From positions 5,179 to 69,178 of the forward strand of contig CAYPOT010000009.1 of the NCBI GenBank assembly GCA_964412455.1: a stretch of DNA of 64,000 nt, in the 5' to 3' direction. Shown piece after piece: positions 7,047-57,259 of the stretch. This DNA comes from an uncultured Nitrospiraceae bacterium. GTDB lineage: Bacteria; Nitrospirota; UBA9217. Numbering within the stretch: position 1 is the stretch's first letter; the number at the start of each line of letters is the position of its first letter. The notes beneath the pieces are model-generated. The model ran no database searches. It had not been told where the DNA came from and saw only the letters and a program-made list of their open reading frames with translations. The position numbers and the translations under genes are program-made.

Positions 7047-7115
7047 GATCGTATTTCGTTTGGTGTCTCTTACATTGATAAAATGCACCAATGTTGTTTA
7101 AGAGAGATTTCAATT

Positions 7116-8435
7116 ATGAAAAAATATTATGATCCTTTATATGGTGAAATCAAGCTAGATGAGCTTGTCTTTAGTATTATTGAAAAATGTCCTGAAATAA
7201 AGCGGCTCAGATATGTCGGCCTCATGAATTTCAAATCTTTGAGCATGCTACCTTTAACAAGCATCACGAGGTTAGAACATACAATTGGTCTATCGTACCT
7301 AGCACAATTATTTGCCGACTCAAATTCTTTTTCAAAAACATCGAGGAACAATTTAATCGTCGCTTCACTTTTTCATGATGTTAACAGCGCGTCATTTGGA
7401 CATGCTATTGAATGGGCAGTGGATCGCTATACGCCTTATAACCACGAAAAGGAAACCGAGTGGTTAGCTGATAAAGAAAAGACCTCGTTTTTAAACAAAA
7501 AGCCAATATTTATTGAGCAATATGGTGTGACAAGATATGATTTGGAAAAAGAATATGGATTTAACTTGACTAAGGCTTATCAAATTATTAACGGAGTGGA
7601 TTCATTTACAATTAACAATAATGGAATAGATCTAGATAACGTTGACAACGTTTTTCGTATGGGTTTATACATGGGGCTGGAACCTTTCGAAAAGGGATGC
7701 CCTGTAAGGTTAGCCAAGAGTTTAAAGATAGTTGACGGGCGTGATAATTTTGTTATTAAAGAGGAAGCTATTGACTTAGTGATGACATGGTATCAATTAA
7801 GAGCGAATATTTACGGGAGATTTATTTACTCCGAAGAGTATATGGGTTATGAATATCTTTTATTTCAACTTATTGCTGAGTATGCAAAACACGTTGAGTT
7901 TGATAGCATAAGAAATCTTTTTAATTACACGGATGAAAATCTATTGTGGCATTTTTATGATAAGAAGAATTCGCTCCCGTCGGTAAGTAATATAGCGAGC
8001 ATGTTATTATTGCATGATATTCCTAAGACATACGCAATATTGCGCTCAGATGAATTTGACAAAAAAGAAAAACTAATTAAACCTGGAATTCTAGATGCTA
8101 TTGCCCAAAGTGTGAGTGAGTATTTGCACAATTCTAAAGAGGTTTCGAACACATCATCAGGGGAAATATTTTTGCATTTAACGACAGACGATAGAAAAAC
8201 CAACAGACAAATTGACTTTTATGTAGAGAAGAGTGGAGAAGTTGTTAAGCAATCTATAGGTTTCGATAAGAGATACATTGTTATTGGTGTATTGGGGAAA
8301 AAAAATCTGTCAGAAAAAGTAAAAACGCTAATCGCAGAAAAAACCATTGAAAAGCTTAGAAGCAGTAATTTGGGTAATTTCGATAATATTGAATTCGTCG
8401 AATCAAATGCGTTAAAGCAAAAAGTGCTATTCTAG
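7116..8435 (+). CDS. HD-domain phosphohydrolase, SAMHD1/dGTPase-like
   Basis: YDPLYGEIKL...EIKRLRYVGL...TRLEHTIGLSYLA...LFHDVNSASFGH parallels the dNTP-triphosphohydrolase N-terminal layout (H...HD). The region is AT-rich. Confidence 0.65.
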   Translation: MKKYYDPLYGEIKLDELVFSIIEKCPEIKRLRYVGLMNFKSLSMLPLTSITRLEHTIGLSYLAQLFADSNSFSKTSRNNLIVASLFHDVNSASFGHAIEWAVDRYTPYNHEKETEWLADKEKTSFLNKKPIFIEQYGVTRYDLEKEYGFNLTKAYQIINGVDSFTINNNGIDLDNVDNVFRMGLYMGLEPFEKGCPVRLAKSLKIVDGRDNFVIKEEAIDLVMTWYQLRANIYGRFIYSEEYMGYEYLLFQLIAEYAKHVEFDSIRNLFNYTDENLLWHFYDKKNSLPSVSNIASMLLLHDIPKTYAILRSDEFDKKEKLIKPGILDAIAQSVSEYLHNSKEVSNTSSGEIFLHLTTDDRKTNRQIDFYVEKSGEVVKQSIGFDKRYIVIGVLGKKNLSEKVKTLIAEKTIEKLRSSNLGNFDNIEFVESNALKQKVLF

Positions 8436-8451
8436 CCGCACCTTTTAATTT

Positions 8452-9660
8452 ATGGAAAAGAAAAAAGATATTTCGCATTTTGATTTGCTTGATTGGAATT
8501 TTACTAGAGAAGATTCGAGACTCTACTTGCACAATTTCTGTTGGTATCCTTCAAGATTCATCCCAATAATCCCAGCCCACTTAATTCAAGCCCTAAGCAA
8601 GACCAATGAAACTGTGCTGGATCCGTTTTGCGGAATAGGGACTACGTTAGTCGAGGCTTTGAAGCAGAGGCGAAATGCAATTGGCGTTGATTTAAATCCA
8701 ATCGCATGCTTTGTCTCTAAAACTAAAGGAAAAATATTGACAGGTCATAAAGTAAACCTGTCTCTAATTGAAGGCTTGTTAGAAAACCTGGCGCCGTTGA
8801 GTGGTGATGATCTATTCACAAAAAAACGCACAGGTAGAGGTCATTATAATTTACGGGAGAAGTCAATCCCAAATTACGCTGTCAATGTGGAATGGTTTCA
8901 TCCCGAAACTTTAAAAATGCTTTCGCATATATACTATTCTGTCGAAGATCTTCCGAGAGGACTTACGAGGGATATATGCAAAATATTTTTTATTTCAATT
9001 CTCATGCAGTCCTCCGGGCACGATTTGAATAAGCCATACACTTATTATGCAGACAATGTGAAGCCTAAAAAAGAAAAATTGATTAAAGACGCCTACAAAC
9101 TATATGTGCAAAAATTGGATAAATTTTTATGTGAATATAAGCTCATAGAGTTACCCGAGAAAAACAGGCTGGATTTTGCCGTATACAACGAAGATGCGAG
9201 AGGGTTAGAAGGTTTGGTGGATAAAAAAGTTGACCTTATAGTTACTTCGCCTCCGTATTTAAATGTTACTGACTATACAACTGGCTTTAGGTTAGCTCAT
9301 CTGTGGTATAGCTTTCAAAAGGATATGCGTATTGAGGACATTAAAAGAAGAGAAATTGGTGCTCGATACAGGCGGAAGTCACGTAACAGTTTAAATGAAT
9401 ATGTCGGGGATATGCAGTCAGTCCTTTGCAAAATGGACAGCGTTTTAAAGACCAATGGGTATCTTTGCTTGATTCTTGGTGAATCACAAAAATACTCCAA
9501 GATTGTGAATAAGATAATAATGGACTTTATGTCGAACGAATTGCGGTTAGAATATATTGATTCTTTTAGTCGTGAGATAATAAAAAAATTCTTCATTCAT
9601 CCAAATGGTGGGGGTGTCAGTACAGAAGAAATTATTATTTACAGAAAAAAAAGAAAGTGA
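8452..9660 (+). CDS. DNA methyltransferase (N6-A or N4-C type, SPPY catalytic motif)
   Basis: AdoMet motif VLDPFCGIGTT (about 8620-8646) and catalytic VTSPPYLNVTDY (9244-9258). Motif I precedes motif IV by about 200 aa. Confidence 0.8.
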   Translation: MEKKKDISHFDLLDWNFTREDSRLYLHNFCWYPSRFIPIIPAHLIQALSKTNETVLDPFCGIGTTLVEALKQRRNAIGVDLNPIACFVSKTKGKILTGHKVNLSLIEGLLENLAPLSGDDLFTKKRTGRGHYNLREKSIPNYAVNVEWFHPETLKMLSHIYYSVEDLPRGLTRDICKIFFISILMQSSGHDLNKPYTYYADNVKPKKEKLIKDAYKLYVQKLDKFLCEYKLIELPEKNRLDFAVYNEDARGLEGLVDKKVDLIVTSPPYLNVTDYTTGFRLAHLWYSFQKDMRIEDIKRREIGARYRRKSRNSLNEYVGDMQSVLCKMDSVLKTNGYLCLILGESQKYSKIVNKIIMDFMSNELRLEYIDSFSREIIKKFFIHPNGGGVSTEEIIIYRKKRK

Positions 9661-10766
9661 GGTGTGTCTGCGCTATGGAAAATCACATCGTCATGATGCC
9701 TAATATGATAATACCATATGGCTACGAAATAGTGCCAATTATGGCTTATCCTGCTGGTTTTATCTACAGATTTAGATTTGATGAGGAATGGCTTTCAGAT
9801 AGGATAAAAGCCGATGTGTCTTCATTGTCAGCGAAAAAGGGTTATATCGTTTTCAGAGATCCAGAAAGCGCTACGTTTTACCCCATAAGGCATATCACAA
9901 TCAAGGTGGCGCAAAGAATAGGTAAATACTATTATTTTGAATATGAATTAAATGAAATATTTGACTTTGATTCTAACGAAACATGGAGGACAAAGCAAAT
10001 AACTCAATTTAATGACTCTTTTAAGAGTTTTCATGAATCAGAGTTTAAAGACAACATTCCTGGTAAAGATATGAAGCCCCTCGTATTTTTGACTAATTTT
10101 GCACCAACCATAAATAATGAACATGTCCAATTTACAAATCCATTGGAAAATGAGTTGGAGCGATGGGGAAATATAATTTCAATTATTAAAAATATAAAGT
10201 TTTATGAAAACGTAGAATTTATAAAAATCCTTGATATAGTGCCAATGAAAAAGCGAGACGAGGAAGTGCAAGTTAAAGAGAATTATTTATTTGTACAAGA
10301 AGACGGCGATTATAAGTTGAGGATATTTCAGCTTAAGCCTAAAGGATCGGTAGAAAGGATCGAACCGAAAGATATTGAAGTAAGATCAGACGACAAATAT
10401 ATTAGCGTCATAAGAAATAAACAACGCGCAGTAGGGAAGTATGATGTGCTAAGTTTCGTTTTCCGCGTGCATGCCGGCAGTGGAGGCCAGAGAAGTTATT
10501 TAGATGTTCTACATGCTCCCAAAACAGAAGCAGCCCAGTACATTGCGCCGACACTGTATCTTCCAGTAGCTATTCAAGGAAAAAGAAAGCTAATGGTTAT
10601 AAGAATTTTATTTGCCTTTGTCTTAGTCTCATTCTATCTTTTTCCTGAGGCTATAAGTTTCATATCTGATCACAGGATTGTGAAGGATTTTGCTATGGTC
10701 CTCTTCACTATTTCTGTGATAGATATTCTGAAAGAAATACGGGACCTGTTTAAGGCGAATAGATAA
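9657..10766 (+). CDS. Hypothetical protein with C-terminal double transmembrane anchor
   Basis: 369-aa ORF (alternative ATG at 9675). Overlaps the upstream stop by 4 nt and the downstream start by 1 nt. C-terminus has LMVIRILFAFVLVSFYLF and FAMVLFTISVIDIL hydrophobic helices. No family recognised. Confidence 0.6.
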   Translation: MRCVCAMENHIVMMPNMIIPYGYEIVPIMAYPAGFIYRFRFDEEWLSDRIKADVSSLSAKKGYIVFRDPESATFYPIRHITIKVAQRIGKYYYFEYELNEIFDFDSNETWRTKQITQFNDSFKSFHESEFKDNIPGKDMKPLVFLTNFAPTINNEHVQFTNPLENELERWGNIISIIKNIKFYENVEFIKILDIVPMKKRDEEVQVKENYLFVQEDGDYKLRIFQLKPKGSVERIEPKDIEVRSDDKYISVIRNKQRAVGKYDVLSFVFRVHAGSGGQRSYLDVLHAPKTEAAQYIAPTLYLPVAIQGKRKLMVIRILFAFVLVSFYLFPEAISFISDHRIVKDFAMVLFTISVIDILKEIRDLFKANR

Positions 10767-12907
10767 TGGTTATCGTTGGCCTAAACCTTGGTTCAACAGA
10801 ATTTAATAAGAAATTACACGACGGAGGCATCTGTATTGTTGTTGATGGTAAAGTAAAATTCGCAGTGGCTGAAGAGCGTATTTCGCGCAGAAAGCGCTCA
10901 GGCGGATTCAGGGAATCACTGGACTATGCTCTTTCTTGTTTGAATTTAGATAGGAGTAATATCGATCTTGTTGTTTATTCAAGCTGTTGTGAGAGTATTA
11001 ACAATAGCATTAACATCGCAGAATTACAGAATATAAAATCAATTCCCTGTGACCATCATCTATCTCACGCTTTAAGTGTGTATCTGACATCTCCTTATGA
11101 AAAGGCACTTATTGCCGTTTTAGACGCAGGAGGAAATCTTCTCGGTAATGACAACCATAGTGACTGGTGGCTTCATTCCCGAGAGCAGCAATCATACTAT
11201 GTCGCAGAAGGGAACAATGTCACGCTAATTGATAGAGATTTTATCTTACCTGAAGCAGCAGGCATAGGGGAAATATATCGTGCCTTTACATATTATCTTG
11301 GGTGGGAATCTTCTCGATTTGCAGGCAAGACCATGGCGCTTGCCGCATATGGAGATCCTGGTGCATTTAAAGGTAACAACATATTTGACTTGGACATAAA
11401 TGGGAACATACGCTCACATATAAAAAATAATCCGATAGAGCCCTTGTCTATGGTTGAGCAGTTACTCGATAGATATGGGAGAAAAAATGTGCCTCCTCGG
11501 AAAGATGGTCAACCGATTCTACAAGTGCATAGTGATCTTGCTCGCTGGATACAAAATGAAACGGAGGACATAGTAACCGCAAAACTTAACTATTTAATGC
11601 GTAAGACAGGCATTTCTAATCTTTGTTTGGCAGGAGGAGTTGCCTATAATTGCTCGATGGTTGGAAAGATAATGAATAATACTATGGCAAATAATGTTTT
11701 TCTCCAGCCGGCATCGGGTGATCAAGGTCAATGTCTTGGCAATGCCATGTTTGGATACACTCAAATTAGAAATGCTTGGATAAGAGTTAATCCATTCAAT
11801 CCATATCTAGGATGCGGTATTGAAATAAACCATGATACAATTCGAGGCGCGTTAAAGAGTAATAATCAGGTTACAATTAATGCCCCGCGTGATATAGCAG
11901 TAACAACTGCAAAATTACTCTCGCAAGGAGAAATAGTGGCGTGGTTCCAAGATCGGAGTGAATTCGGTCCTCGTGCCTTGGGCAATCGAAGTATTCTTGC
12001 AAACCCCTGTCTTTCGAAGAGTAAGGAGAAATTGAATTCAATAAAGGGTCGTGAAGACTTTATGCCTTTTGCTCCGACTGTTCTATACGAAAGTGCAAAA
12101 GACTATTTTGTGATTTCCGATGAATGTCCTTTTATGACTGCAGCAGTTAAGGTGCGCCCAAACGTCAGAGAAACAATACCGGCAGCTGTCCATGTGGACG
12201 GAACATCTAGAGTCCAAACATTGAGAAAAGAAAATAATCCGCTATTTTACGATTTGATACATGAATTCTACAAGTTGACAAAAGTGCCATTAATTATTAA
12301 TACTTCATTCAATGCAGCTGGTGAGCCTATTGTTGAAACACTTAATAATGCAATAGACACTTTTATGAAATTAGACATAAGATTTATGGTAGCTGGTTCG
12401 TTCCTTCTGGAAAAGCCATTGGTTAGAACATCTATGCCTAGTGTCAAAGATGCAGGTCGGTTGTTGGATATTGTATTTGGGGCGGATCTGATCGTCAACG
12501 AGACGGAATTAAGTGCGCTGCTTAGTGAGCGCTTTCCGGGAATTAAATCCTTTCCTAGAGATAAATTTTTGCTCAATGAAAAATTTATTAATTGGTTAAA
12601 AAACGGCAGAAAAACGACAACCATTAGGTATAAGAAAGTGGGTATAGATTTCCCAGTGGCGACATGTTTGCCGCTAATTCCGACAAAAGATTTTTCAAAA
12701 AATCGAGGTGAAGCGCCAGTTGGCTTTTTGAAAATAAGAAAATATATAATAAAAAAATATCGGGATCTTAATGAAACAGATGCTCGTAATGATGGATTTA
12801 AAACTCTAACGGAGCTAAGAAGTGTTCTTTTCGATATCTATGGTGCTATACAAGAAGATGACTATGTTTCTATATACTATGTTCAAATAAAAAATAATCC
12901 AAGTTAA
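10766..12907 (+). CDS. NodU/CmcH/TobZ-family carbamoyltransferase fused to a C-terminal ASCH-like domain
   Basis: DHHLSHA, LDAGGN, GGVAYNC, PASGDQG, FGPRALGNRSILANP, HVDGTSRVQT and INTSFNAAGEPIV blocks match the carbamoyltransferase family. The last ~115 aa (NWLKNGRKTTTIRYKK...DDYVSIYYV) resemble ASCH. Confidence 0.8.
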   Translation: MVIVGLNLGSTEFNKKLHDGGICIVVDGKVKFAVAEERISRRKRSGGFRESLDYALSCLNLDRSNIDLVVYSSCCESINNSINIAELQNIKSIPCDHHLSHALSVYLTSPYEKALIAVLDAGGNLLGNDNHSDWWLHSREQQSYYVAEGNNVTLIDRDFILPEAAGIGEIYRAFTYYLGWESSRFAGKTMALAAYGDPGAFKGNNIFDLDINGNIRSHIKNNPIEPLSMVEQLLDRYGRKNVPPRKDGQPILQVHSDLARWIQNETEDIVTAKLNYLMRKTGISNLCLAGGVAYNCSMVGKIMNNTMANNVFLQPASGDQGQCLGNAMFGYTQIRNAWIRVNPFNPYLGCGIEINHDTIRGALKSNNQVTINAPRDIAVTTAKLLSQGEIVAWFQDRSEFGPRALGNRSILANPCLSKSKEKLNSIKGREDFMPFAPTVLYESAKDYFVISDECPFMTAAVKVRPNVRETIPAAVHVDGTSRVQTLRKENNPLFYDLIHEFYKLTKVPLIINTSFNAAGEPIVETLNNAIDTFMKLDIRFMVAGSFLLEKPLVRTSMPSVKDAGRLLDIVFGADLIVNETELSALLSERFPGIKSFPRDKFLLNEKFINWLKNGRKTTTIRYKKVGIDFPVATCLPLIPTKDFSKNRGEAPVGFLKIRKYIIKKYRDLNETDARNDGFKTLTELRSVLFDIYGAIQEDDYVSIYYVQIKNNPS

Positions 12908-12939
12908 TTAGTTGCTCTGCTAAACGACAAAACACAAAA

Positions 12940-13782
12940 ATGACGCAATTTTTGAAAGACTTGCTGCGAAACTATGGGCTCTTGTACATAACGCTTACGC
13001 AGCTTTTGAGTGAGCGACCAGGAAACAAGTATGCTTCGCTGGACGAGTACTATCACAGTCTGGGCATGCAGACGCCTGATAACCCAATGTTTTACGTGCA
13101 TCCGAGCTCGGATGGCAAAACGCGCTACTTAGACGAGGGAGAGCACGATATTGAAGCGCGTGATGATGCGGGTAACAAGGTTGGAAAAGTAGTTGGCGTT
13201 TTGGAACTTCCGGAAGACGAATTCTATTTTTTTCAAGCATTCCGTCCTGGCATGTTCGATTTAGAAAAGGATCTTCCTTCATTTCTTTTTGAAATGGCAT
13301 TAATTTATGCTAATTCTCTATTTGAAAATTACATATCTAGCATTATTCGTCTCAGGTTTCAAAAACACCCAGAACTGATGGGTGTCAATAAACAAGTGAC
13401 TTATGGTCAAGTAATTAAGAGCAATTCGAAACAAGATGTCATCGAGCACCTGATTAATCGAGAAGTCCAACAATTGATGTATGAGCCTATCGGTGCAGTA
13501 TTGGAACGAATGCGAGCAAAATACGGATTTCGAGATCTAACCACGAAGTACGACGAGGAAATAATTTATCTGTCACTTATAAGAAATTGCGTTATGCATA
13601 ATTCTCGGAAGGTTGATTCTAAGCTTGCCACCAATAAACCTAAGCTAGTATTAGGCGAAAGATTGCCTGTTGAAAAGAGTCTCGTGGACACAGCAATTCA
13701 TACTTACCGAAAATTTTGCTATGAAGTTGATATCATGTTAGAAGCTATTGGATCACTCAAACAAACAAGTGAGCCTCTATGA
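12940..13782 (+). CDS. HEPN-motif protein (putative RNase effector)
   Basis: 280-aa ORF with an Rx4H motif, IRNCVMHN (13582-13599), in an alpha-helical C-terminal half. It is the last gene of the AT-rich operon. Confidence 0.5.
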   Translation: MTQFLKDLLRNYGLLYITLTQLLSERPGNKYASLDEYYHSLGMQTPDNPMFYVHPSSDGKTRYLDEGEHDIEARDDAGNKVGKVVGVLELPEDEFYFFQAFRPGMFDLEKDLPSFLFEMALIYANSLFENYISSIIRLRFQKHPELMGVNKQVTYGQVIKSNSKQDVIEHLINREVQQLMYEPIGAVLERMRAKYGFRDLTTKYDEEIIYLSLIRNCVMHNSRKVDSKLATNKPKLVLGERLPVEKSLVDTAIHTYRKFCYEVDIMLEAIGSLKQTSEPL

Positions 13783-13823: not shown

Positions 13824-15518
13824 ATGCGCTACTCGAAACTGTTCATTCCTACATTAAAAGAGGCGCCGACCGACGCCGAGGCGGTCTCGCACAAGCTCAT
13901 GGTGCGCGCCGGCTTCGTGCGCCAGCTCGCGGCGGGGCTCTATATCTACCTTCCGCTGGGCATCCGGGTGATGGAGAAGATCAACCGCATTATCCGCGAG
14001 GAAATGAACGCCATCGGCGGCCAGGAAGTGACCATGCCGGTGCTGAATCCCGCCGAGGTGTGGCAGCAGACCGGGCGGTGGGATGCCATCGGCGGCGAGA
14101 TGTTCCGTCTCAAGGACCGCGGCGGCAGGGACATGTGCCTGGCCATGACCCACGAGGAGACCATGACCTGGCTCGCGGCGCACGATATCCGTTCCTACCG
14201 GGAACTGCCCCAGATCTGGTACCAGGTGCAGACGAAATTACGGGACGAAGCGCGGCCCAAGAGCGGCGTACTCCGGACGCGCGAGTTCACCATGAAGGAC
14301 TCCTACAGCTTCGACGCCGATGAGGCCGGGCTCGACCGGTCCTATCAACTTCATCTCGAGGCCTACAAGAAGATCTACTCCCGCTGCGGAATTCGATTTC
14401 ACGTGGTCCAGAGCGACACGGGCATGATGGGCGGCAGCATGGCGCACGAGTACATGGCGCCTTCTCCGGCGGGCGAGGACGACGTGGCGCTCTGCGATGG
14501 CTGCGGGTACGCGGCGAACACGGAGCTCGCGCTGTCCGTGCCGAAGGCGGCTGCATCATCGAACGACAGTTACGAGGAGATCGCTACGCCGGAACGGCGA
14601 ACCATCGACGAGGTGACCCGCTTCCTGAAGGTCACGCCGGACCGTTTGCTCAAGTCCATCCTCGTCACGACCGACCAGGGACCGCTGCTGGCGCTGGTGC
14701 GCGGCGACCAGACCCTGCATGAGAAGAAGCTGGCCAAGCTTATCGGACCCCATCGGCCCGCGCAGAAGGACGAGGTGAAGGCCGCTCTCGGCGTGCCTGT
14801 CGGATTCATCGGCCCCATGGGCCACAAGATCCGGAAGATCGCTGACCTGGTGCTGAAACAGGGGACCCACATCGCCGGCGCGAACAAGGAAGGCTTCCAT
14901 GTGAAGGGTGTCTCCGCGGACAAGCATTTCAGCGACGCCGAGTTCGCGGACATCCACACCGCGGCGGAAGGCGACGCCTGCGCCCAGTGCGGCAAGCCGC
15001 TGCGCATCGAGCGGGTCATCGAGATCGGGAACATCTTCAAGCTGGGCACCAAGTACTCCGTCCCGCTCAAGGCGAACTACCTTGACGAACAGGGGAATGA
15101 GAAGCCCATCATCATGGGGAGCTACGGCATCGGCCCGGCGCGCATCGCCGCCGCGGCCATCGAGCAGGGGAACGACGAGAACGGCATCATCTGGCCGGCG
15201 GCGATCGCGCCCTACCAGGTCCTGATCGTGCCGGTGAACGTGAAAGACCAGCGCTCCATGGACGTGGCCGAGGAGATGCACACGGCCCTTGAGGAAAAAG
15301 GGTTCGAGGCGCTCATGGACGACCGCGACGAACGGGCCGGCGTCAAGTTCAAGGACGCGGACCTTATCGGCATTCCGTACCGGGTCGTCATCGGCGAGAA
15401 GAACCTGAAGGAAGACCTGGTGGAGCTTAAGGAGCGGAAGACCGGGGTCGTGGTCAAGGTGAAGGTCGCCGACGCGGTGGCGGCGATCGTGAAGAAGATC
15501 GTGATGGAGAACGCGTAA
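13824..15518 (+). CDS. proS: Prolyl-tRNA synthetase
   Basis: Class II aaRS motifs (REFTMKDSYSF; GSYGIGPARI) with ProRS-type sequence throughout. Start at ATG 13824 ([15 protein letters not shown]). Confidence 0.93.
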   Translation: MRYSKLFIPTLKEAPTDAEAVSHKLMVRAGFVRQLAAGLYIYLPLGIRVMEKINRIIREEMNAIGGQEVTMPVLNPAEVWQQTGRWDAIGGEMFRLKDRGGRDMCLAMTHEETMTWLAAHDIRSYRELPQIWYQVQTKLRDEARPKSGVLRTREFTMKDSYSFDADEAGLDRSYQLHLEAYKKIYSRCGIRFHVVQSDTGMMGGSMAHEYMAPSPAGEDDVALCDGCGYAANTELALSVPKAAASSNDSYEEIATPERRTIDEVTRFLKVTPDRLLKSILVTTDQGPLLALVRGDQTLHEKKLAKLIGPHRPAQKDEVKAALGVPVGFIGPMGHKIRKIADLVLKQGTHIAGANKEGFHVKGVSADKHFSDAEFADIHTAAEGDACAQCGKPLRIERVIEIGNIFKLGTKYSVPLKANYLDEQGNEKPIIMGSYGIGPARIAAAAIEQGNDENGIIWPAAIAPYQVLIVPVNVKDQRSMDVAEEMHTALEEKGFEALMDDRDERAGVKFKDADLIGIPYRVVIGEKNLKEDLVELKERKTGVVVKVKVADAVAAIVKKIVMENA

Positions 15519-15519
15519 T

Positions 15520-15578
15520 TGCAGGGGAAACCCTATGTGGTTGCCCTGATCCGGGCGGCCACGCAGGGCCGCCCCTAC
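15520..15578. repeat. REP-like element family A, copy 2
   Basis: GCAGGGGAAACCCTATGTGGTTGCCCTGATCCGGGCGGCCACGCAGGGCCGCCCCTAC, immediately after the proS stop. Confidence 0.85.
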
Positions 15579-15607
15579 ATTAGATCAGGCGAGAGGGGCA
15601 AGGGGAA

Positions 15608-15871
15608 ATGCTAGAGCAGGACATCGACACAATCAAGGCGATCATCGCAAAAAAGGCGGAACGATTCAATGCCCGGGCGGGCGACGTGATCTTTGCGGGC
15701 GTCGAGGGCGGCACCGTCAAGATCGCTCCGTCGGGCTTCTGCTGGCGCTGACACGTGACCCGGATAGCCCTGGTCGAGGGCTTACAAAAGGAGCTCGCCG
15801 CGACGTTCCCCTGGGTGGAACAGGTTATCGTGGTACGGCCGGAGCAGGCGGAAACGGGAAAAAAGACTTGA
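15608..15871 (+). CDS. NifU C-terminal-domain-like protein with in-frame UGA (candidate selenocysteine, CxxU)
   Basis: ATG at 15608, in-frame TGA at 15749-15751, stop at 15869-15871. Read-through gives GDVIFAGVEGGTVKIAPSGFCWR-U-HVTRIALVEGLQKELAATFPWVEQVIVV, and U aligns with the second Cys of the NifU GxCxxC motif. Confidence 0.55.
15766..15782 (+). promoter_or_regulatory. SECIS-like hairpin downstream of the in-frame UGA
   Basis: AGCCCU-GGUCG-AGGGCU: a 6-bp stem with a G/U-containing apical loop about 23-27 nt after the UGA. The UGACACG context resembles the E. coli fdhF SECIS as I recall it. Confidence 0.4.
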
Positions 15872-15920
15872 ATTCCCGCTGTGAAGTGCCTATAATTTGA
15901 ACCATGGAGGGCGCATACCA

Positions 15921-16151
15921 ATGGCCGATGATTCTTTTACGCTGACACTTACTCCTCAGCAGTGCGTCGAGATAAAGAAACAGATCGGTTTCGACCTCAC
16001 CGAGATCCATATTACCAAGCGGTCGCTGAACAAGCTCAGGGTCTTCCGGCTCCGGCTGAGCGAAGAGCAGCAGCAGACCATCGCCGATGCCTGGGGCCAG
16101 AAGGTGAAAGAGCTGACGGTGACGCGCTCGGTGGCGACGCGGATCATGTGA
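15921..16151 (+). CDS. Small hypothetical protein
   Basis: 76 aa from ATG 15921 (MADDSFTLTLTPQQ...). No family recognised. Confidence 0.4.
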   Translation: MADDSFTLTLTPQQCVEIKKQIGFDLTEIHITKRSLNKLRVFRLRLSEEQQQTIADAWGQKVKELTVTRSVATRIM

Positions 16152-16234
16152 TACCGGTCATTTGCGGGGAGGCCCGCAATTCTCTCAAATCAGTTAACCC
16201 GGTTCATTCAGCAACCATGCCATGAAAGAAGGAG

Positions 16235-16432
16235 GTGAACCCCTTGAAAAAACTGTTTGCTGTCATGCTTTCATTGCTTATCGTAGCGGCATTCGTCTTT
16301 ATCGGCTGCGAGAAGAAACCCGAACCGCCGAAGCCCGCACCGGCCCCGGCAGTAGCACCGCCGCCTCCGGCACCAGCACCGGCCCCGGCTCCGGCCCCGG
16401 CACCCACGCCTGCGAAGCCTGCAAAGAAGTAA
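16235..16432 (+). CDS. Small lipoprotein with Pro/Ala-rich tail
   Basis: Signal peptide with lipobox (VFIGC) followed by KPEPPKPAPAPAVAPPPPAPAPAPAPAP. A terminator follows. Confidence 0.6.
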   Translation: MNPLKKLFAVMLSLLIVAAFVFIGCEKKPEPPKPAPAPAVAPPPPAPAPAPAPAPAPTPAKPAKK

Positions 16433-16468
16433 TGTACCGCGGGATCTATCAGCTTGTGACCCTATTGT

Positions 16469-16495
16469 GGCCCCCGTCAGGGGGCCTTTTCTTTG
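16469..16495 (+). terminator. Rho-independent terminator
   Basis: GGCCCCC-GTCA-GGGGGCC hairpin followed by TTTTCTTT. Confidence 0.7.
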
Positions 16496-16653
16496 GAAAG
16501 TACGCCATCATTTTAAAAAGCATTTGGACACGGAAGCATTAGGATTAACGCCTGATAAGGGCGGATAAAAAAACAGGAGACTCTCGCTGACAAAAGTTAA
16601 AGTACCTTCCCCTGAAATATCCGTTTTTATCCGGTTATTATCAGATTTGAGCC

Positions 16654-18498
16654 GTGACAAAAGTCGTTAGTAGGATCATCAAGGAAGCAAGAGAAAACCC
16701 TATGACCAGGCTTACGACGGACATGCTCGGCGAGATTCTCCTGAAGGCGGGGAAGCTTACGCCTGAGCAGGCGAAAGAGATCAGGATCAAACAGGACCAT
16801 CAGCGGATGAAGATCCTGAAGTCACGGGGCGAGACGATCCACCGCGGCAGGGTCCACCTCGAGGACGAAGTGTCAGCGATCGAGGTCGCCGCTTCGCTGG
16901 AGTTCGAACAGGCCGGTGCGCCGGGAAAGGTCCTTACCGAGGACCTCATTACCGAGGCCGTCGCCCTGCACGTCGGCATGCCCTTTAGAAAGATCGATCC
17001 CTTGAAGCTCAATCCGGAGATCGTCACCCAGATCCTGCCGCGGGCCTTTGCCCGCAGGAACGGCGCAGTGCCGATCGGTCGGGGTGAGGACAAGCTCACG
17101 GTCGCCGTATCGGACCCCTTCAACCTCGAGGTCGTGGAAAACATCGAGCGGATGGGATTCAAGGTTTCCCGGGTCCTCTCCCCCCGGACGGACATCCTGA
17201 AGATCATTACCGAGTTCTACGGGTTCCGCTCATCGGTGAGCGCCGCGGCCAAGGAATTGGGCTCCGAGGTGGATCTCGGGAACCTCGAACAGTTCGTCAA
17301 GATGAAGGCCGTGTCCGAGATCGAGGCCACGGACAAGCACATCGTGACCGCCGTGGAGTTCCTGTTCCGCTACGCCTTCGACCAGCGGGCCAGCGATATC
17401 CACATCGAGCCCAAGCGCGACGTTTCCGAGATCCGGTTTCGGATCGACGGCATGCTCCATGTGATCAACAAGGTCCCCAAACAGGTCCATCCCGCCTTCG
17501 TGTCCCGCATCAAAATGCTCTCCCGCATGGATATCGCCGAGAAGCGCCGGCCCCAGGATGGCCGTATCAAGACCGAATACAAGGGGCGTGAGGTCGAGTT
17601 TCGCGTGTCCACGATGCCGGTCGCGTTCGGTGAGAAAGTGGTGCTCAGGATCTTCGACCCCGATATCATCCTGCAGGACCTGGAGGAACTGGGTTTCTCG
17701 AAGCGGGAGTATGAGCTCTTTCGTTCCTTCATCGCCCGGCCTCATGGCATTGTTCTTGTCACGGGCCCCACGGGAAGCGGCAAGACCACCACGCTCTATT
17801 CCGCGCTCAAGACCGTCTCGACTCCCGAAGTGAACGTGATCACTGTCGAGGACCCCATCGAAATGGTCTACGACCGTTTTAATCAGGTGGCCGTCCAGCC
17901 GCAGATCGGCGTCACGTTCGGCACGACGCTTCGCACGATCCTCCGCCAGGACCCGGACATCATCATGGTGGGCGAGGTACGGGACCTTGATACCGCGGAG
18001 AACGCCGTCCAGGCGTCCCTGACCGGTCATCTGGTCTTTTCGACCCTGCACACCAACGACGCGCCGAGCTCCATCACGCGTCTCCTGGACCTGGGACTCC
18101 CCGCCTTCCTTATCGCGTCGACCGTGGTGGGGATCATGGCCCAGCGGCTGCTGCGGAAAGTCTGCAAGAACTGCGAACGGACGTACCAGCTTCTGCCCGA
18201 GGAGGCCGCGGCCGTCGGCCTTTCGTCCGATCTGAACCAGAAGATCATGGTAAAGTACGGCGAGGGCTGCGGTCAGTGCCGGGGCACCGGTTATCTCGGA
18301 AGGACCGGGATCTTTGAGGTCATGGAAGTGAACGAGAAGATCCGGCCGCTCATCACCGAGAAGGCGGACTCCGAGTTCATCAAGCGCACGGCCATCGGCG
18401 ACGGAATGGTGACGCTCCGCGAAGGCGCGGTGCGGAAGATGCTGAGCGGTGAGACCACCTTTGACGAGGTCATCCGCGTAACGGGGGAAAAAATCTAG
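16654..18498 (+). CDS. GspE/PilB-family secretion ATPase (orphan copy)
   Basis: T2SSE N-terminal domain, Walker A GPTGSGKTTT, Asp/His boxes, and a tetracysteine CKNC...CGQC motif. GTG start at 16654 or ATG at 16702. Confidence 0.88.
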   Translation: MTKVVSRIIKEARENPMTRLTTDMLGEILLKAGKLTPEQAKEIRIKQDHQRMKILKSRGETIHRGRVHLEDEVSAIEVAASLEFEQAGAPGKVLTEDLITEAVALHVGMPFRKIDPLKLNPEIVTQILPRAFARRNGAVPIGRGEDKLTVAVSDPFNLEVVENIERMGFKVSRVLSPRTDILKIITEFYGFRSSVSAAAKELGSEVDLGNLEQFVKMKAVSEIEATDKHIVTAVEFLFRYAFDQRASDIHIEPKRDVSEIRFRIDGMLHVINKVPKQVHPAFVSRIKMLSRMDIAEKRRPQDGRIKTEYKGREVEFRVSTMPVAFGEKVVLRIFDPDIILQDLEELGFSKREYELFRSFIARPHGIVLVTGPTGSGKTTTLYSALKTVSTPEVNVITVEDPIEMVYDRFNQVAVQPQIGVTFGTTLRTILRQDPDIIMVGEVRDLDTAENAVQASLTGHLVFSTLHTNDAPSSITRLLDLGLPAFLIASTVVGIMAQRLLRKVCKNCERTYQLLPEEAAAVGLSSDLNQKIMVKYGEGCGQCRGTGYLGRTGIFEVMEVNEKIRPLITEKADSEFIKRTAIGDGMVTLREGAVRKMLSGETTFDEVIRVTGEKI

Positions 18499-45620: not shown

Positions 45621-45861
45621 GGTATGCCAGGCATGACGCTCTGTACTTCGATACAGGCCGGTCAGGTGTGGCGCCTGACTGGCGACTTGGAGGTGCAAAT
45701 CCTCTACGGACCTTGATGGGAGGAACCGTTAGCCGAACAGCAAGGGTGTCCGGGGCGACCCGGAATCTGAAGGAAGCTGTAAGCAAAGTCCCGGCCTGAC
45801 GAACAGAAATCGCCTATCCGCCCATTGCACAGCGGACCTTAAAGCTATGCGGGGGAGGTCA

Positions 45862-45890
45862 TTGACATCCTGCTCGCCGGTCCGTATACT
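45862..45890 (+). promoter_or_regulatory. Sigma70-type promoter of the gsp operon
   Basis: TTGACA (45862-45867), 17 nt, TATACT (45885-45890). Confidence 0.55.
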
Positions 45891-45928
45891 GCTTTCGGAA
45901 AGGCGGTATAGCGCGCTGCCGGTGCCTG

Positions 45929-46486
45929 ATGAAGATCGACAATGACAGGATGCACAAAGTATTCGCAGCTCTTCTATTCATAGCGGGGAGCATGCTCGCC
46001 GCCATGGCCGCGCCTGTACCGGTCTGCCATGCGCAGACATCGGCGTACCGCCTGGTCGGAACGGTCGAGAGCGGGCCGTTCACCGGCGCGGTGCTGGACG
46101 ACTCCACGGACGGCCAGACCTTTTACCGGTTGAACGAGAAACTGGCTGACGAATCGCGGATCGTGAAAGTGAAGAGCGATCATGTCGTCCTGAAATGGCC
46201 GGACGGCGCAACGACCGAGCTTTACGTATCACAGGGAAGTGCGGTCAGTGCGGCCGGAGCTGCGCAACCGCGATCAACGCCGGACGTTCGGAACAGAGTG
46301 AAGCCTGTTCAGCCGCCATCGGTCCGTCCGGAGCCGAGCCCGGGCGGCGACGCCTTGGAGGAAAGACGCGCAAGGATAGAGCAAAACCGCAGGGATCTGG
46401 ATGCCAGGTTTGACAAGCAGAAAGGCCCGAGACAGGGAAGCAGCAGAAAGAGGAGCCGCTCCTCCGGCACAGACGAGGGGGACTGA
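45929..46486 (+). CDS. GspC-like protein (HR domain only, no PDZ)
   Basis: Signal/TM segment. YRLVGTVESGPFTGAVLDD...FYRLNEKLADESRIVKVKSDHVVLKWPDG is paralogous to the HR region of the next gene. Confidence 0.6.
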   Translation: MKIDNDRMHKVFAALLFIAGSMLAAMAAPVPVCHAQTSAYRLVGTVESGPFTGAVLDDSTDGQTFYRLNEKLADESRIVKVKSDHVVLKWPDGATTELYVSQGSAVSAAGAAQPRSTPDVRNRVKPVQPPSVRPEPSPGGDALEERRARIEQNRRDLDARFDKQKGPRQGSSRKRSRSSGTDEGD

Positions 46487-51177: not shown

Positions 51178-51305
51178 GCGCCAAATGACAAGAATCAAAT
51201 CACAAATAAATTTCAATTTTCAAACGCCAAATTCCAACCGTTTGGGATATTGATATTTGAATTTTGGAGCTTATTTGAGATTTGCTATTTGTAATTTGGA
51301 GCTTG
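51178..51305. repeat. AT-rich palindromic intergenic element, family D, copy 2
   Basis: CAAATCACAAATAAATTTCAA ... GCTTATTTGAGATTTGCTATTTGTAATTTGGAGC. Shares its right arm with 4049-4153. Confidence 0.75.
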
Positions 51306-51314
51306 TACCAATCC

Positions 51315-52532
51315 ATGCCCATCTACGAATACAAAGGCGTCAACGCAATCGGCAAGAGCATCTCCGGCGTCCTGGACGGCGAGAGCCTGAAGACCGTGAA
51401 GGCGAAGCTCAGGAAGGACGGCATCGTCGTTCTTGAGGTCCGTGAGGGCAGCGCGGTGCGGGCGGCGCGCTCACGGGAGTTCCACTTCGGCGGGGGAAGG
51501 GTCAAGGCCGGTGACCTCGCCAATGCCACGCGCCAGCTTGCCACGCTCCTTTCGGCCGGCCTCCCGCTCATGGAGGCGCTGAACGTGCTTGTGGACCAGG
51601 AGGAGGGCCAGGCGCTCAAAGGAGCGCTCGCGTCGGTGCGCGATTCGGTGCGCGGCGGATCCTCCCTCGCCGACGCCCTCAAGACGAACGCAAAGGTCTT
51701 CTCCCCGCTCTATGGGAACATGGTGACGGCCGGCGAGGCGAGCGGGACCCTCGAGATCACGCTGGACCGGCTCGCCGATTTTCTCGAGGAGCAGGTCCGT
51801 TTCCAGGGCAGGCTCACGGCGGCGCTGGCGTATCCCGCGCTCATGACCGTCATCGGCATCGGCGTTCTGTTCTTCCTGTTCAGCTTTGTCCTGCCCCGGG
51901 TCGTCGGGATGTTCGAGGATATGCGGCAGCAGCTCCCGTTCATTACCGTGGTCCTTCTGGCGGTGGTGCGGGTCCTGTCGGGATTCTGGTGGCTGATCCT
52001 GCTTACGGTGGGTGGCGCGGGTTGGTACGTGCAGCGGTATTTCAGCACGGCCGCGGGCAAGGTGAACCTGGACGGTTGGCTGCTACGCATGCCGGTGTTC
52101 GGGACGCTCATCCGGATGATCGCCGTGTCGCGGTTCACCCGGACCCTGGGGACGCTGCTGCAGAGCGGGGTGCCGACGCTCACGGCGCTGGACATCGTGC
52201 AGAACGTCATCGGGAACACGGTGCTTGCCGAGGCGGTCCGGAAGGCGCGCGAGAACGTGCGCGAGGGCGAATCCATCGCCGATCCCCTGCGGCGGAGCCG
52301 CCTCTTCCCGCCCGTGGTGGTCCAGATGATCTCGGTCGGTGAAAAGAGCGGCGAACTGGAAAAAATGCTCCTTAAAGTGTCGGATTCCTTCGACCGGACC
52401 GTGGAGTCGCGCATCGCCGCACTGATGTCCCTCGTGGAACCGGCGATCATCCTGGTGATGGGGCTCATTATCGGATTCATCGTCATCGCCATCCTGCTGC
52501 CGATCCTGCAGATGAGCTCGGCGGTGAGATAA
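51315..52532 (+). CDS. gspF: Type II secretion system inner-membrane platform protein
   Basis: Starts MPIYEYKGVN. Two GspF repeats with TM segments. Confidence 0.9.
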   Translation: MPIYEYKGVNAIGKSISGVLDGESLKTVKAKLRKDGIVVLEVREGSAVRAARSREFHFGGGRVKAGDLANATRQLATLLSAGLPLMEALNVLVDQEEGQALKGALASVRDSVRGGSSLADALKTNAKVFSPLYGNMVTAGEASGTLEITLDRLADFLEEQVRFQGRLTAALAYPALMTVIGIGVLFFLFSFVLPRVVGMFEDMRQQLPFITVVLLAVVRVLSGFWWLILLTVGGAGWYVQRYFSTAAGKVNLDGWLLRMPVFGTLIRMIAVSRFTRTLGTLLQSGVPTLTALDIVQNVIGNTVLAEAVRKARENVREGESIADPLRRSRLFPPVVVQMISVGEKSGELEKMLLKVSDSFDRTVESRIAALMSLVEPAIILVMGLIIGFIVIAILLPILQMSSAVR

Positions 52533-52586
52533 GTCGATTGCGGATTGCGGAGTGCGGAACGAGAACAGCCGATCCTGCGGTAAACC

Positions 52587-52644
52587 GTAGGGGCAACCCC
52601 ATGTGGTTGCCCCCGGGCGGGCGGCCACGCAGGACCGCCCCTAC
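52587..52644. repeat. REP-like element family A, copy 4
   Basis: GTAGGGGCAACCCCATGTGGTTGCCCCCGGGCGGGCGGCCACGCAGGACCGCCCCTAC. Confidence 0.85.
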
Positions 52645-52700
52645 GAATAGGGTTTCACCCGTGTCCATCTGTCGTTACTAAGGTTGTCAGGAGGTTCTTC

Positions 52701-53135
52701 ATGAAAAACCAGAAAGGTTTCACCCTCATCGAGATCATGGTCGTGGTGATCATTCTCGGGCTCCTGGCGGGTCTCGTCCTGCCGAAGATCCTCGGCCGCG
52801 AGGAAGAGGCGCGTGTCAGCTCTGCCAGGCTGCAGATCAAGTCCCTGGAGAACGCCCTCGACGGGTACAAGCTGGACAATGGTTTCTATCCGACGACGGA
52901 CCAGGGGCTCGAGGCGCTCATCAAAAAACCGGAGGCCGGCCGAATTCCGAACAAGTGGCGCGAGGGAGGATACCTGAAGCCGGCGCGCATTCCCAAGGAC
53001 CCCTGGGGCATTGACTTCCACTACTATTCCCCCGGCAACGAGAACCGTGAGTACGAGATCATTTCGTACGGTCCCGACGGCGAGCCGGGCGGCGAGGGCA
53101 AGAGCGCCGATGTTGAGAGCTGGAAGATAGAATAA
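52701..53135 (+). CDS. gspG: Type II secretion major pseudopilin
   Basis: Prepilin leader MKNQKG|FTLIEIMVVVIILG and the GspG core (ISYGPDGEPGG). Confidence 0.9.
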   Translation: MKNQKGFTLIEIMVVVIILGLLAGLVLPKILGREEEARVSSARLQIKSLENALDGYKLDNGFYPTTDQGLEALIKKPEAGRIPNKWREGGYLKPARIPKDPWGIDFHYYSPGNENREYEIISYGPDGEPGGEGKSADVESWKIE

Positions 53136-53209
53136 AGAAATGGGGATTGCGGATGGTTCGACGGGGCTCACCATCATGAGTGTGTCGACTGATTGCGGAT
53201 TGCGGAATG

Positions 53210-53262
53210 CCCCCTCACCCTGCCCTCTCCCCTCAGGGGAGAGGATTAAGGTGAGGGGTGGT
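53210..53262. repeat. Family B repeat, short copy
   Basis: CCCCCTCACCCTGCCCTCTCCCCTCAGGGGAGAGGATTAAGGTGAGGGGTGG. Confidence 0.7.
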
Positions 53263-54879: not shown

Positions 54880-54900
54880 AAAGAAAGTGCGGAGTGCGCG

Positions 54901-57099: not shown

Positions 57100-57107
57100 A
57101 CTCTTTC

Positions 57108-57188: not shown

Positions 57189-57259
57189 ATATAGTGAGTA
57201 CATTGCAGTTCGAAAGAAGGCTGACCGTGTTCATCCGTGGTTGCCCTTAGAGGTTTTAT

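What the first reader, a model, noticed from the sequence alone, without database searches (positions are those of the whole stretch)
15608..15871. NifU-like protein with an in-frame UGA replacing the second Cys of CxxC: candidate selenoprotein missed by ORF calling
Seen in sequence: ATG at 15608, TGA at 15749-15751 (codon 48), then 39 further sense codons to TGA at 15869-15871. Both halves are under 60 aa, so they are absent from the ORF track. The track instead shows an antisense 113-aa ORF here. The joined translation, GDVIFAGVEGGTVKIAPSGFCWR-U-HVTRIALVEGLQKELAATFPWVEQVIVV, follows the NifU C-terminal domain pattern (dGGdv..v.....v.v.l.GaCxxC....T....ie..l......v..V). The UGA falls exactly at the second cysteine. 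A hairpin, AGCCCU-GGUCG-AGGGCU (15766-15782), lies at SECIS-like distance. TGA is used as an ordinary stop elsewhere in the window (for example cdsA), so a reassigned code is unlikely.
Basis: partly seen in the sequence, partly recalled or inferred. Interest (0 to 1): 0.6.

Follow-up and report, generated by a model that had tools for sequence, protein, structure and literature searches.

The report
Selenocysteine-containing Nfu-type iron-sulfur protein gene
A small gene that annotation pipelines cut in half at a UGA "stop" almost certainly encodes an 87-residue iron-sulfur-carrier-like (Nfu) protein. Selenocysteine replaces the second cysteine of its metal-binding CxxC motif, and this selenoprotein family does not appear in current catalogues.

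Summary
One link is untested: I could not check whether this genome carries Sec machinery.

- **Reading frame.** ATG 15608, in-frame TGA 15749-15751 and stop 15869-15871 are as described.
- **Family.** With Cys in place of the UGA, the 87-aa product passes Pfam's NifU threshold (32.2 bits against a cutoff of 27). The first half alone scores 14 bits.
- **Motif position.** Gapless alignments to solved Nfu domains put C45 and the UGA on the two CxxC cysteines.
- **Orthologues.** All 65 syntenic loci come from one clade; the 12 that come from named genomes are Nitrospirota MAGs. The internal codon is always TGA followed by C. Genuine terminal stops in the same loci drift among TGA, TAA and TAG.
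- **Downstream frame.** The 28 codons analysed after the UGA are under purifying selection (dN/dS 0.12, no stops).
- **Hairpin.** Synonymous change collapses over the hairpin at 15766-15782 (pS 0.126). None of 220 control windows goes that low. The stem is kept through wobble changes and loop bases G24 and U26 are invariant.
- **Caveats.** The hairpin's stability in a single sequence is not exceptional. No selA, selB, selC or selD lies in the ~475 kb I hold, and only the literature shows Sec decoding in Nitrospirota.
- **Novelty.** No NifU/Nfu selenoprotein appears in NCBIfam or in the 2026 catalogue of more than 110 families.

Verdict: a new selenoprotein family of a known kind, of moderate interest.

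The parts
15591..15605 (+). Purine-rich Shine-Dalgarno-like tract (GAGAGGGGCAAGGGG) upstream of the start codon
   Evidence: Read directly from the sequence. Not tested further.
15608..15748 (+). First part of the CDS, codons 1-47 (MLEQD...APSGFCWR): helix 1, strands 1-2 and the first Cys (C45, TGC 15740-15742) of the CxxU motif
   Evidence: The database holds 48 orthologues truncated at exactly ...CW[R/Q]. dN/dS is 0.25.
15740..15751 (+). C-W-R-U motif, the counterpart of the Nfu CxxC cluster-binding motif
   Evidence: Gapless alignment to 2M5O, 1VEH, 1XHJ and 2JNV. C45 and W46 are invariant and residue 47 is R, Q or D.
15749..15751 (+). In-frame UGA, the predicted selenocysteine codon (residue 48)
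   Evidence: TGA followed by C in 56 of 56 unique loci and 65 of 65 in total. It is never TAA, TAG, TGC or TGT, although the preceding Arg codon varies synonymously and terminal stops drift.
15752..15868 (+). Second part of the CDS, codons 49-87 (HVTRIALVEGLQKELAATFPWVEQVIVVRPEQAETGKKT): helix 2 and strand 3 of the Nfu fold
   Evidence: No stops in frame in 51 of 51 alignments. dN/dS is 0.12 outside the hairpin. The other two frames show 109 and 9 stops. This half raises the Pfam score from 14 to 32 bits.
15766..15782 (+). 17-nt SECIS-like hairpin: 6-bp stem AGCCCU/AGGGCU with a 5-nt loop GGUCG (loop 15772-15776), starting 14 nt after the UGA
   Evidence: The five core pairs are paired in 229 of 230 cells. 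All 13 one-sided changes are wobble changes. The closing pair is A-U in 25, G-C in 8 and unpaired in 10. G24 and U26 are invariant. pS is 0.126 here against 0.43-0.82 at windows clear of the hairpin, and 0 of 220 windows in flanking genes go as low. The rare Ile codon ATA is fixed in 35 of 37. The single-sequence z-score is only -0.99.
15869..15871 (+). True stop codon (TGA) of the 87-codon gene
   Evidence: In orthologues the terminal stop is TGA in 40, TAA in 12 and TAG in 1.

Best explanation
Window 15608-15871 is a single gene for an 87-residue selenoprotein. It consists of one Nfu-type (NifU C-terminal) domain, and selenocysteine, encoded by UGA at 15749-15751, replaces the second cysteine of the CxxC motif to give C-W-R-U.

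Recoding is most likely directed by the 17-nt hairpin 14 nt downstream. A selenocysteine-specific elongation factor (SelB) would bind its GGUC loop and deliver Sec-tRNA to the UGA-C site, as in the E. coli fdhF paradigm.

**Shown:** the conserved UGA, the translated downstream frame, the Nfu fold and the motif position, and RNA-level constraint on the hairpin.

**Inferred:** that the inserted residue is Sec, and that SelB binds this hairpin.

**Inferred function:** by analogy with Nfu carriers, two monomers would hold a [4Fe-4S] cluster between their C-x-x-U motifs (two thiolate and two selenolate ligands) and pass it to client proteins. Alternatively, the C-x-x-U pair could cycle as a redox-active selenosulfide, as in most CxxU selenoproteins. 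I favour a cluster- or metal-handling role slightly, about 55:45.
For: - The joined product passes Pfam NifU (32.2 bits, cutoff 27; the N-terminal half alone scores 14.2).
- Gapless phmmer alignments to NFU1 2M5O, HIRIP5 1VEH, 1XHJ and 2JNV put C45 and U48 on CxxC.
- The AF2 model (pLDDT 71) has topology alpha-beta-beta-alpha-beta, and its top Foldseek hits are 2M5O, 2Z51, 2JNV and 1VEH.
- There are 65 syntenic orthologous loci; the 12 from named genomes are all Nitrospirota MAGs.
- The internal codon is TGA+C in 56 of 56 unique loci. Terminal stops of this gene, proS and orf76 drift among TGA, TAA and TAG in the same loci.
- The downstream frame has no stops and dN/dS 0.12.
- Synonymous diversity reaches its minimum exactly over the hairpin codons (pS 0.126). 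None of 220 six-codon windows in flanking genes is that low; their minimum is 0.278.
- The stem is preserved through wobble-only changes, with A-U/G-C switching at the closing pair. Loop bases G and U are invariant.
- TGA is a normal stop in 21 of 48 long ORFs.
- Sec machinery and Sec-containing proteins are documented in Nitrospirae/Nitrospirota, including a groundwater lineage (PMC8124441; PMC13510729).
Against: - No selA, selB, selD or tRNA-Sec was found in the window, the rest of its contig or any flank, about 475 kb in all. These genes need not be linked to this locus, and I could not scan whole genomes.
- The hairpin's folding energy is not better than shuffles (z = -0.99). It has only one covarying pair, and the protein sequence there is also conserved, so part of the nucleotide conservation is due to coding.
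- No Cys-containing orthologue exists in 1.84 billion representatives. That is unusual for selenoproteins, and it removes the classic Sec/Cys pairing among close relatives.
- The gene is not next to isc, suf or nif genes, so the Fe-S function rests on analogy only.
- All loci come from one fairly narrow clade (proS at least ~77% identical over well-covered matches), so they are not independent inventions.
Confidence: 0.85

Rival explanations
1. The UGA is recoded through the same SECIS-like hairpin, but to cysteine. A tRNA-Sec-like tRNA-Cys (selC*) would be delivered by a SelB-type factor, giving an ordinary CxxC Nfu protein.
For: selC* tRNA-Cys genes are reported in anaerobic Nitrospirae (Thermodesulfovibrio) and in metagenomic contigs probably from Nitrospirae (PMC5389517). 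All the comparative evidence fits this rival as well as it fits Sec.
Against: According to the same paper, the genomes carrying selC* also held the complete Sec apparatus. If Cys were the product, TGC or TGT replacements should be nearly neutral, yet none occurs in 65 loci at saturated synonymous divergence. No selC* was seen in the sequence I hold.
Confidence: 0.05
2. The UGA is a genuine stop and the 47-residue peptide is the product. The downstream conservation would then reflect something else, such as a separately translated 38-aa peptide starting at GTG 15755, or regulatory DNA for the downstream gene orf76.
For: Gene callers output the two pieces separately (P0002 and P0061). A sigma-70-like promoter for orf76 overlaps the 3' end of the gene.
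Against: - Downstream conservation is codon-periodic and frame-specific: dN/dS 0.12 with no stops, against 109 and 9 stops in the other two frames.
- The downstream half completes the Nfu domain in both sequence and fold.
- The GTG at 15755 is present in only 18 of 51 orthologues and has no ribosome-binding site.
- An ordinary stop would drift to TAA or TAG, as the true stops do.
- The promoter occupies only 15868-15896.
Confidence: 0.04
3. Low-level, SECIS-independent read-through of a leaky UGA-C by a near-cognate tRNA (for example Trp), giving a regulated mixture of truncated and full-length protein.
For: UGA followed by C is the weakest RF2 termination context (general knowledge, not tested here). 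The C is invariant.
Against: This does not explain the roughly four-fold drop in synonymous diversity confined to the hairpin, or the invariant G and U in the loop. The invariant C is also forced by the conserved His/Gln codon. Trp at a position homologous to a cluster-binding Cys would be non-functional, and TGG is never seen.
Confidence: 0.04
4. The locus is a pseudogene or an assembly artefact, or the real gene is the antisense 113-aa ORF.
For: The antisense ORF 15580-15921 is the only ORF longer than 60 aa here.
Against: The antisense frame is interrupted in 19 of 51 orthologues and has no Pfam hit. The sense gene is conserved in 65 loci from independent assemblies and is under purifying selection.
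Confidence: 0.02

Closest known systems
Nfu / NifU C-terminal domain Fe-S cluster carriers (Pfam PF01106; human NFU1 2M5O, Arabidopsis CnfU 2Z51, S. epidermidis SE0630 1XHJ)
   Same: A single domain of about 70 residues with the same alpha-beta-beta-alpha-beta fold. The two-ligand motif sits in the same place, at the start of helix 2. The Pfam score is above the gathering threshold, and the alignments across the motif are gapless.
   Different: - The second ligand is encoded by UGA (CxxU in place of CxxC).
- The motif reads C-W-R-U-H-V-T instead of the usual C-x-x-C-P-S-S.
- The subfamily is so diverged that ordinary Nfu proteins do not reach significance in a whole-database search.
- There is no isc, suf or nif neighbourhood.
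- The distribution appears restricted to one Nitrospirota clade.
HesB-like (A-type Fe-S carrier) selenoprotein, TIGR01911, listed in the 2026 selenoproteome review (PMC13188914)
   Same: It is the precedent for a small Fe-S cluster carrier or assembly protein in which Sec replaces a cluster-ligand cysteine.
   Different: It has an unrelated fold and motif (UxGP). The protein here does not match that model or any other NCBIfam selenoprotein model.
Bacterial SECIS elements, with E. coli fdhF as the paradigm (recalled from the literature, not tested here)
   Same: [quoted passage not shown] The UGA is followed by C. [quoted passage not shown]
   Different: The spacer is 14 nt, compared with the 11 nt I recall for fdhF. 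There is no conserved bulged U in the stem. A lower stem is only partly supported: pair 15-36 is unpaired in 31 of 46 sequences. Rfam has no model that matches.
CxxU redox selenoproteins (SelW-like, AhpD-like, GrdA and others; Table 1 of PMC13188914)
   Same: A CxxU dyad at the start of a helix, which in those families forms a reversible selenosulfide.
   Different: Those families have thioredoxin-like or AhpD folds. Here the dyad sits on an Nfu scaffold, where the homologous CxxC is a metal-cluster ligand pair.

Membership tests
Bacterial selenoprotein gene (UGA-Sec with SECIS) | In-frame UGA conserved across orthologues and never replaced by another stop codon | tested here: met
   TGA in 65 of 65 loci and 56 of 56 unique ones, while terminal stops drift among TGA, TAA and TAG.
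Bacterial selenoprotein gene (UGA-Sec with SECIS) | Protein-coding conservation continues in frame downstream of the UGA | tested here: met
   dN/dS is 0.12 and there are no stops in 51 alignments. The other two frames are full of stops.
Bacterial selenoprotein gene (UGA-Sec with SECIS) | UGA aligns with a (redox or metal-ligand) Cys in Cys-containing homologues | tested here: met
   It aligns with the second Cys of CxxC in four solved Nfu proteins. However, no close Cys orthologue exists.
Bacterial selenoprotein gene (UGA-Sec with SECIS) | Stem-loop immediately 3' of the UGA with a small apical loop containing G | tested here: met
   Hairpin at 15766-15782 with loop GGUCG. G24 and U26 are invariant. 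The stem is kept in 229 of 230 cells. pS is at its minimum here, and 0 of 220 null windows go as low. The single-sequence energy is not significant.
Bacterial selenoprotein gene (UGA-Sec with SECIS) | selA, selB, selC (tRNA-Sec) and selD present in the same genome | not testable with these tools
The literature shows the machinery in Nitrospirae, including a groundwater lineage, and Sec-containing proteins in Nitrospirota MAGs.
Bacterial selenoprotein gene (UGA-Sec with SECIS) | Selenium physically incorporated at the UGA position | not testable with these tools
   This needs 75Se labelling or mass spectrometry.
Nfu / NifU C-terminal domain (PF01106) | Score above the Pfam gathering threshold | tested here: met
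   32.2 bits against a cutoff of 27, with U modelled as C.
Nfu / NifU C-terminal domain (PF01106) | Nfu fold | tested here: met
   The AF2 model has pLDDT 71. Its top Foldseek hits are 2M5O (rmsd 2.2 A over 72 columns, TM 0.57-0.59), 2Z51, 2JNV and 1VEH. The model was built from P0001, a member that probably carries sequencing errors.
Nfu / NifU C-terminal domain (PF01106) | CxxC cluster-binding motif | tested here: inconclusive
   The first Cys is invariant and the second position is UGA, giving CxxU. The feature is met only if Sec or Cys is inserted there.
Nfu / NifU C-terminal domain (PF01106) | Binds and transfers a [4Fe-4S] cluster | not testable with these tools
   This is a biochemical property.
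Nfu / NifU C-terminal domain (PF01106) | Genomic association with Fe-S biogenesis genes (typical but not obligatory) | tested here: not met
   The conserved neighbours are proS, orf76, a PilB-like ATPase, CNNM and mdh.
HesB-like selenoprotein and the other catalogued selenoprotein families with NCBIfam models | Match to the family HMM | tested here: not met
   The NCBIfam release 20 scan gave only a 16.9-bit match to the C-terminal part of NifU proper (cutoff 273).

The most novel reading that the evidence does not exclude
This would be an obligately Sec-containing Nfu-type carrier, the first known Nfu with selenium. Selenolate would serve directly as a ligand of a transiently bound [4Fe-4S] cluster (mixed two-Cys, two-Sec coordination at a dimer interface). 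Every known member uses Sec and no Cys form exists, which would imply that selenium is essential to the carrier's chemistry, for example faster cluster release or resistance to oxidative trapping.
Probability: 0.35. Interest if true: 0.65.

Novelty: new member of a known kind. Interest (0 to 1): 0.5.

Why it matters
- **Annotation.** This adds a selenoprotein family that current annotation misses. NCBI, JGI and ENA all list it only as 47-62-aa hypothetical fragments.
- **Catalogues.** It is absent from the 2026 catalogue of more than 110 prokaryotic selenoprotein families and from NCBIfam.
- **Fe-S biogenesis.** It would extend selenium use to a second class of Fe-S cluster carrier, after HesB-like proteins. 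It also offers a natural Cys-to-Sec ligand swap for studying how ligand chemistry tunes cluster transfer.
- **Unusual distribution.** All known members use Sec, which is uncommon among selenoprotein families.
- **Ecology.** It marks a groundwater, wetland and sediment clade of Nitrospirota as likely to depend on selenium.
- **Testability.** The comparative signature gives a clean case: peptides from the second half should be detectable in existing groundwater metaproteomes.

Tried and rejected
- **Rfam.** A gathering-threshold scan of the window and a permissive scan of 15500-16000 found no SECIS-type match. I saw no sign that Rfam holds a suitable bacterial SECIS model.
- **Thermodynamic test of the hairpin.** Not significant, so the case for the hairpin rests on comparative data only.
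- **Search for tRNA-Sec.** ARAGORN on the window and 22 loci found no tRNAs at all.
- **Search for sel genes.** I ran tblastn with E. coli SelA, SelB and SelD sequences recalled from memory, plus regexes for classic Sec motifs, over 432 kb. There were no hits. This only generates leads, and the negative result is uninformative.
- **Extending the contig.** I looked up the window's edge genes to reach the rest of its contig. It holds no sel genes.
- **Second selenoprotein gene.** A GC3-based screen for in-frame TGA in the window, and a screen for TGA plus a stem with a GGUC loop over 475 kb, gave only off-frame artefacts.
- **Cys-containing orthologues.** The exhaustive HMMER search with P0001 found none. 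The long hits P0050 and P0057 are repeat artefacts.
- **P0001, the one 'read-through' database entry (FWWRG).** Rejected as evidence. It comes from a 0.47x-coverage contig with four substitutions clustered in 15 nt.
- **L012, the apparent exception.** A 1-nt deletion lies upstream of the motif and the TGA is intact.
- **Misalignment.** MAFFT misaligned the short C-terminal half.
- **Lower-stem extension (14-16 with 35-37).** Only partly supported, so I do not claim it.
- **Antisense ORF.** Rejected.

Full report
**1. The observation**

An ATG at 15608 opens a frame that meets TGA at 15749-15751 (codon 48). The frame continues for 39 sense codons to TGA at 15869-15871. The mechanical ORF list shows the two pieces (47 aa, and 38 aa from an internal GTG) and a 113-aa antisense ORF at 15580-15921. 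The hairpin AGCCCU-GGUCG-AGGGCU lies at 15766-15782. TGA ends 21 of the 48 long ORFs in the window. One of them is cdsA at 453-1259 (PF01148). UGA is therefore not reassigned in this organism.

**2. What the protein is**

With Cys placed at the UGA, the 87-residue product matches Pfam NifU (PF01106) at 32.2 bits, above the curated cutoff of 27. The first half alone scores 14.2 bits, and the antisense ORF matches nothing.

phmmer against PDB sequences finds only Nfu-type domains: mouse HIRIP5 1VEH and human NFU1 2M5O (E = 7e-5), S. epidermidis 1XHJ, and plant Nfu 2JNV and 2Z51. The alignments are gapless across the motif. C45 falls on the first cysteine of CxxC and the UGA on the second.

An AlphaFold model of the only full-length database member has mean pLDDT 71 and topology helix-strand-strand-helix-strand. 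Its best Foldseek matches in the PDB are 2M5O (rmsd 2.2 A over 72 columns), 2Z51, 2JNV and 1VEH. The domain assignment and the position of the UGA are both confirmed.

**3. Evidence that the UGA is decoded**

*The stop position is shared.* A word-indexed search of 5.8 billion proteins returned 49 relatives, and 48 of them end at exactly ...GFCWR. A full HMMER search of 1.84 billion representatives again returned only truncated members, plus one C-terminal half called as a separate ORF.

*The orthologues.* DNA-level retrieval gave 12 loci from GTDB species representatives, all Nitrospirota MAGs, and 53 metagenome loci. All share the gene order proS, this gene, orf76, PilB-like ATPase, CNNM, mdh, so they are orthologues from one clade.

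*The codon is always TGA.* It is TGA in every locus. The one apparent exception, L012, has a 1-nt deletion upstream of the motif and an intact TGA. Among 56 unique sequences the internal codon is TGA followed by C in all 56. In the same loci the gene's true terminal stop is TGA in 40, TAA in 12 and TAG in 1. The proS stop is TAA in 27, TGA in 14 and TAG in 13. The orf76 stop is TGA in 25, TAG in 20 and TAA in 13. An ordinary stop would have drifted in the same way.

*The downstream half is translated.* In 51 unique codon alignments the downstream frame has no stops, while the other two frames have 109 and 9. Mean pairwise amino-acid identity downstream is 75%. dN/dS is 0.25 upstream of the UGA and 0.12 downstream of it, outside the hairpin, at saturated synonymous divergence (dS of at least 1).

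**4. The hairpin**

On its own the hairpin is unremarkable. The window sequence folds no better than shuffles (z = -0.99), and Rfam has no matching family.

The comparative signal is strong.

- Proportional synonymous difference in six-codon windows is 0.43-0.82 across the parts of the gene clear of the hairpin. It falls to 0.126 at codons +5 to +10 (ATA GCC CTG GTC GAG GGC), exactly over the hairpin.
- None of 220 equivalent windows in the flanking genes proS and orf76 falls below 0.278.
- The Ile codon at +5 is the otherwise rare ATA in 35 of 37 sequences. ATA makes up 7% of the gene's other Ile codons.
- The five core base pairs are formed in 229 of 230 cells. All 13 one-sided substitutions keep pairing through G-U wobble. 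The closing pair alternates between A-U (25) and G-C (8), with 10 unpaired.
- Loop positions G24 and U26 are invariant.

[quoted passage not shown] From my own recollection it also resembles the minimal 17-nt fdhF element with its G-U loop. Covariation is limited to one pair, and the peptide IALVEGL is itself conserved. The RNA argument therefore rests mainly on the synonymous sites.

**5. What could not be shown**

I could not test whether the genome has selA, selB, selC and selD. None lies in the window, in the rest of its contig, or in the flanks of related loci, about 475 kb in all. No second selenoprotein gene is present in the sequence I hold.

The literature supplies indirect support.

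- selB overlapping selC is described in a groundwater lineage of Nitrospirae (PMC8124441).
- A Sec-containing multihaem cytochrome with SECIS-like elements occurs in Nitrospirota MAGs from aquatic and groundwater sites (PMC13510729).
- Some anaerobic Nitrospirae also carry selC* tRNA-Cys, which can decode SECIS-dependent UGA as Cys (PMC5389517). This leaves a small rival in which the product is a plain CxxC Nfu. The complete absence of TGC or TGT at this codon argues against that rival.

**6. Mechanism**

*Shown:* a conserved UGA-C, a translated downstream half, an Nfu fold with C-x-x-UGA at the ligand motif, and an RNA-constrained hairpin 14 nt downstream.

*Inferred:* SelB bound to Sec-tRNA recognises the GGUC loop and inserts Sec at residue 48.

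*Function, by analogy with Nfu carriers (established knowledge of NFU1, NfuA and CnfU):* two monomers would bridge a [4Fe-4S] cluster through their C-x-x-U motifs, giving two thiolate and two selenolate ligands, and hand it on to client proteins. The alternative is a selenosulfide redox couple, as in other CxxU selenoproteins. The neighbourhood contains no isc, suf or nif genes, so neither role has contextual support.

**7. Comparison with what is known, and novelty**

The protein is a member of the Nfu domain family by score and by fold. It is a divergent, clade-restricted branch: ordinary Nfu proteins do not reach significance in the exhaustive search. Its motif is unusual, reading C-W-[R/Q/D]-U-H.

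It matches no NCBIfam selenoprotein model. The 2026 review that tabulates more than 110 prokaryotic selenoprotein families never mentions NifU, Nfu or PF01106. The held deep-Sep supplements do not either, and the BSepDB main text does not. Only five papers in the library contain NifU, selenoprotein and UGA together, and none describes such a protein.

The nearest precedent in concept is the HesB-like selenoprotein, an A-type Fe-S carrier. I therefore class this as a new family within a well-known kind, bacterial UGA/SECIS selenoproteins. Its unusual feature is that all known members use Sec.

**8. Verdict**

- The main gap is direct evidence for Sec machinery and for selenium incorporation.
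- Interest is moderate (0.5). New selenoprotein families are still reported regularly, but a Sec-liganded Nfu would matter to Fe-S biogenesis, and it can be tested directly with existing metaproteomes.

Noticed in passing
window 7083-13782: Five consecutive ORFs have GC3 of 0.32-0.40, against about 0.8 in the neighbouring genes. They are an HD-domain protein, an N6/N4 DNA methyltransferase, a hypothetical protein, a carbamoyltransferase with an ASCH domain, and a 280-aa hypothetical protein. They sit beside TumE and MazE/PIN toxin-antitoxin genes, just upstream of proS. The 280-aa ORF has no counterpart in any related locus. This looks like a strain-specific, horizontally acquired island of the restriction-modification or defence type.
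   Followed up: partly
window 15921-16151 (orf76) and 15868-15896: A 76-aa ORF with no Pfam or NCBIfam match lies immediately downstream of the Sec-Nfu gene in 62 of 69 loci. It has its own sigma-70-like promoter (TTGAAT, 17-nt spacer, TATAAT; 10 of 12 matches) that overlaps the Nfu gene's stop codon, and the promoter sequence is conserved in relatives. Its function is unknown and it may be functionally linked to the Nfu gene.
   Followed up: partly
window 16222-16542: A 106-aa ORF with no family match is present in only 18 of 69 related loci and is poorly conserved (48-82% identity). It is a variable insert between orf76 and the PilB-like ATPase gene.
   Followed up: no
window 45749-45930: Rfam match to group II intron domains D1-D4 (RF02001, 53.6 bits, E = 6e-8). 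It is the only RNA family in the window that passes its gathering threshold.
   Followed up: no
window ~15553-15574: A GC-rich perfect palindrome (GGGCGGCC-ACGCAG-GGCCGCCC) lies in the proS/Nfu intergenic region. In relatives, gene callers start spurious N-terminal extensions (MKCGVRNAECG..., VALIRAATQGRPY...) inside similar repeat-like sequence. It could be a REP-like element or the proS terminator.
   Followed up: no
L069 860-875 (protein P0001): The only database protein that reads through the UGA (FWWRG) comes from a 0.47x-coverage contig. It has four substitutions clustered within 15 nt of an otherwise invariant stretch, so it is almost certainly a sequencing artefact. It should not be used as evidence of a sense-codon variant.
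   Followed up: yes
window 51282-57763 and 16654-18498: The window carries a full type II secretion / type IV pilus-like gene set (T2SSF, pseudopilins, GspL/M) and a separate PilB/TfpB-like ATPase two genes downstream of the Sec-Nfu gene. No functional link is evident.
   Followed up: no
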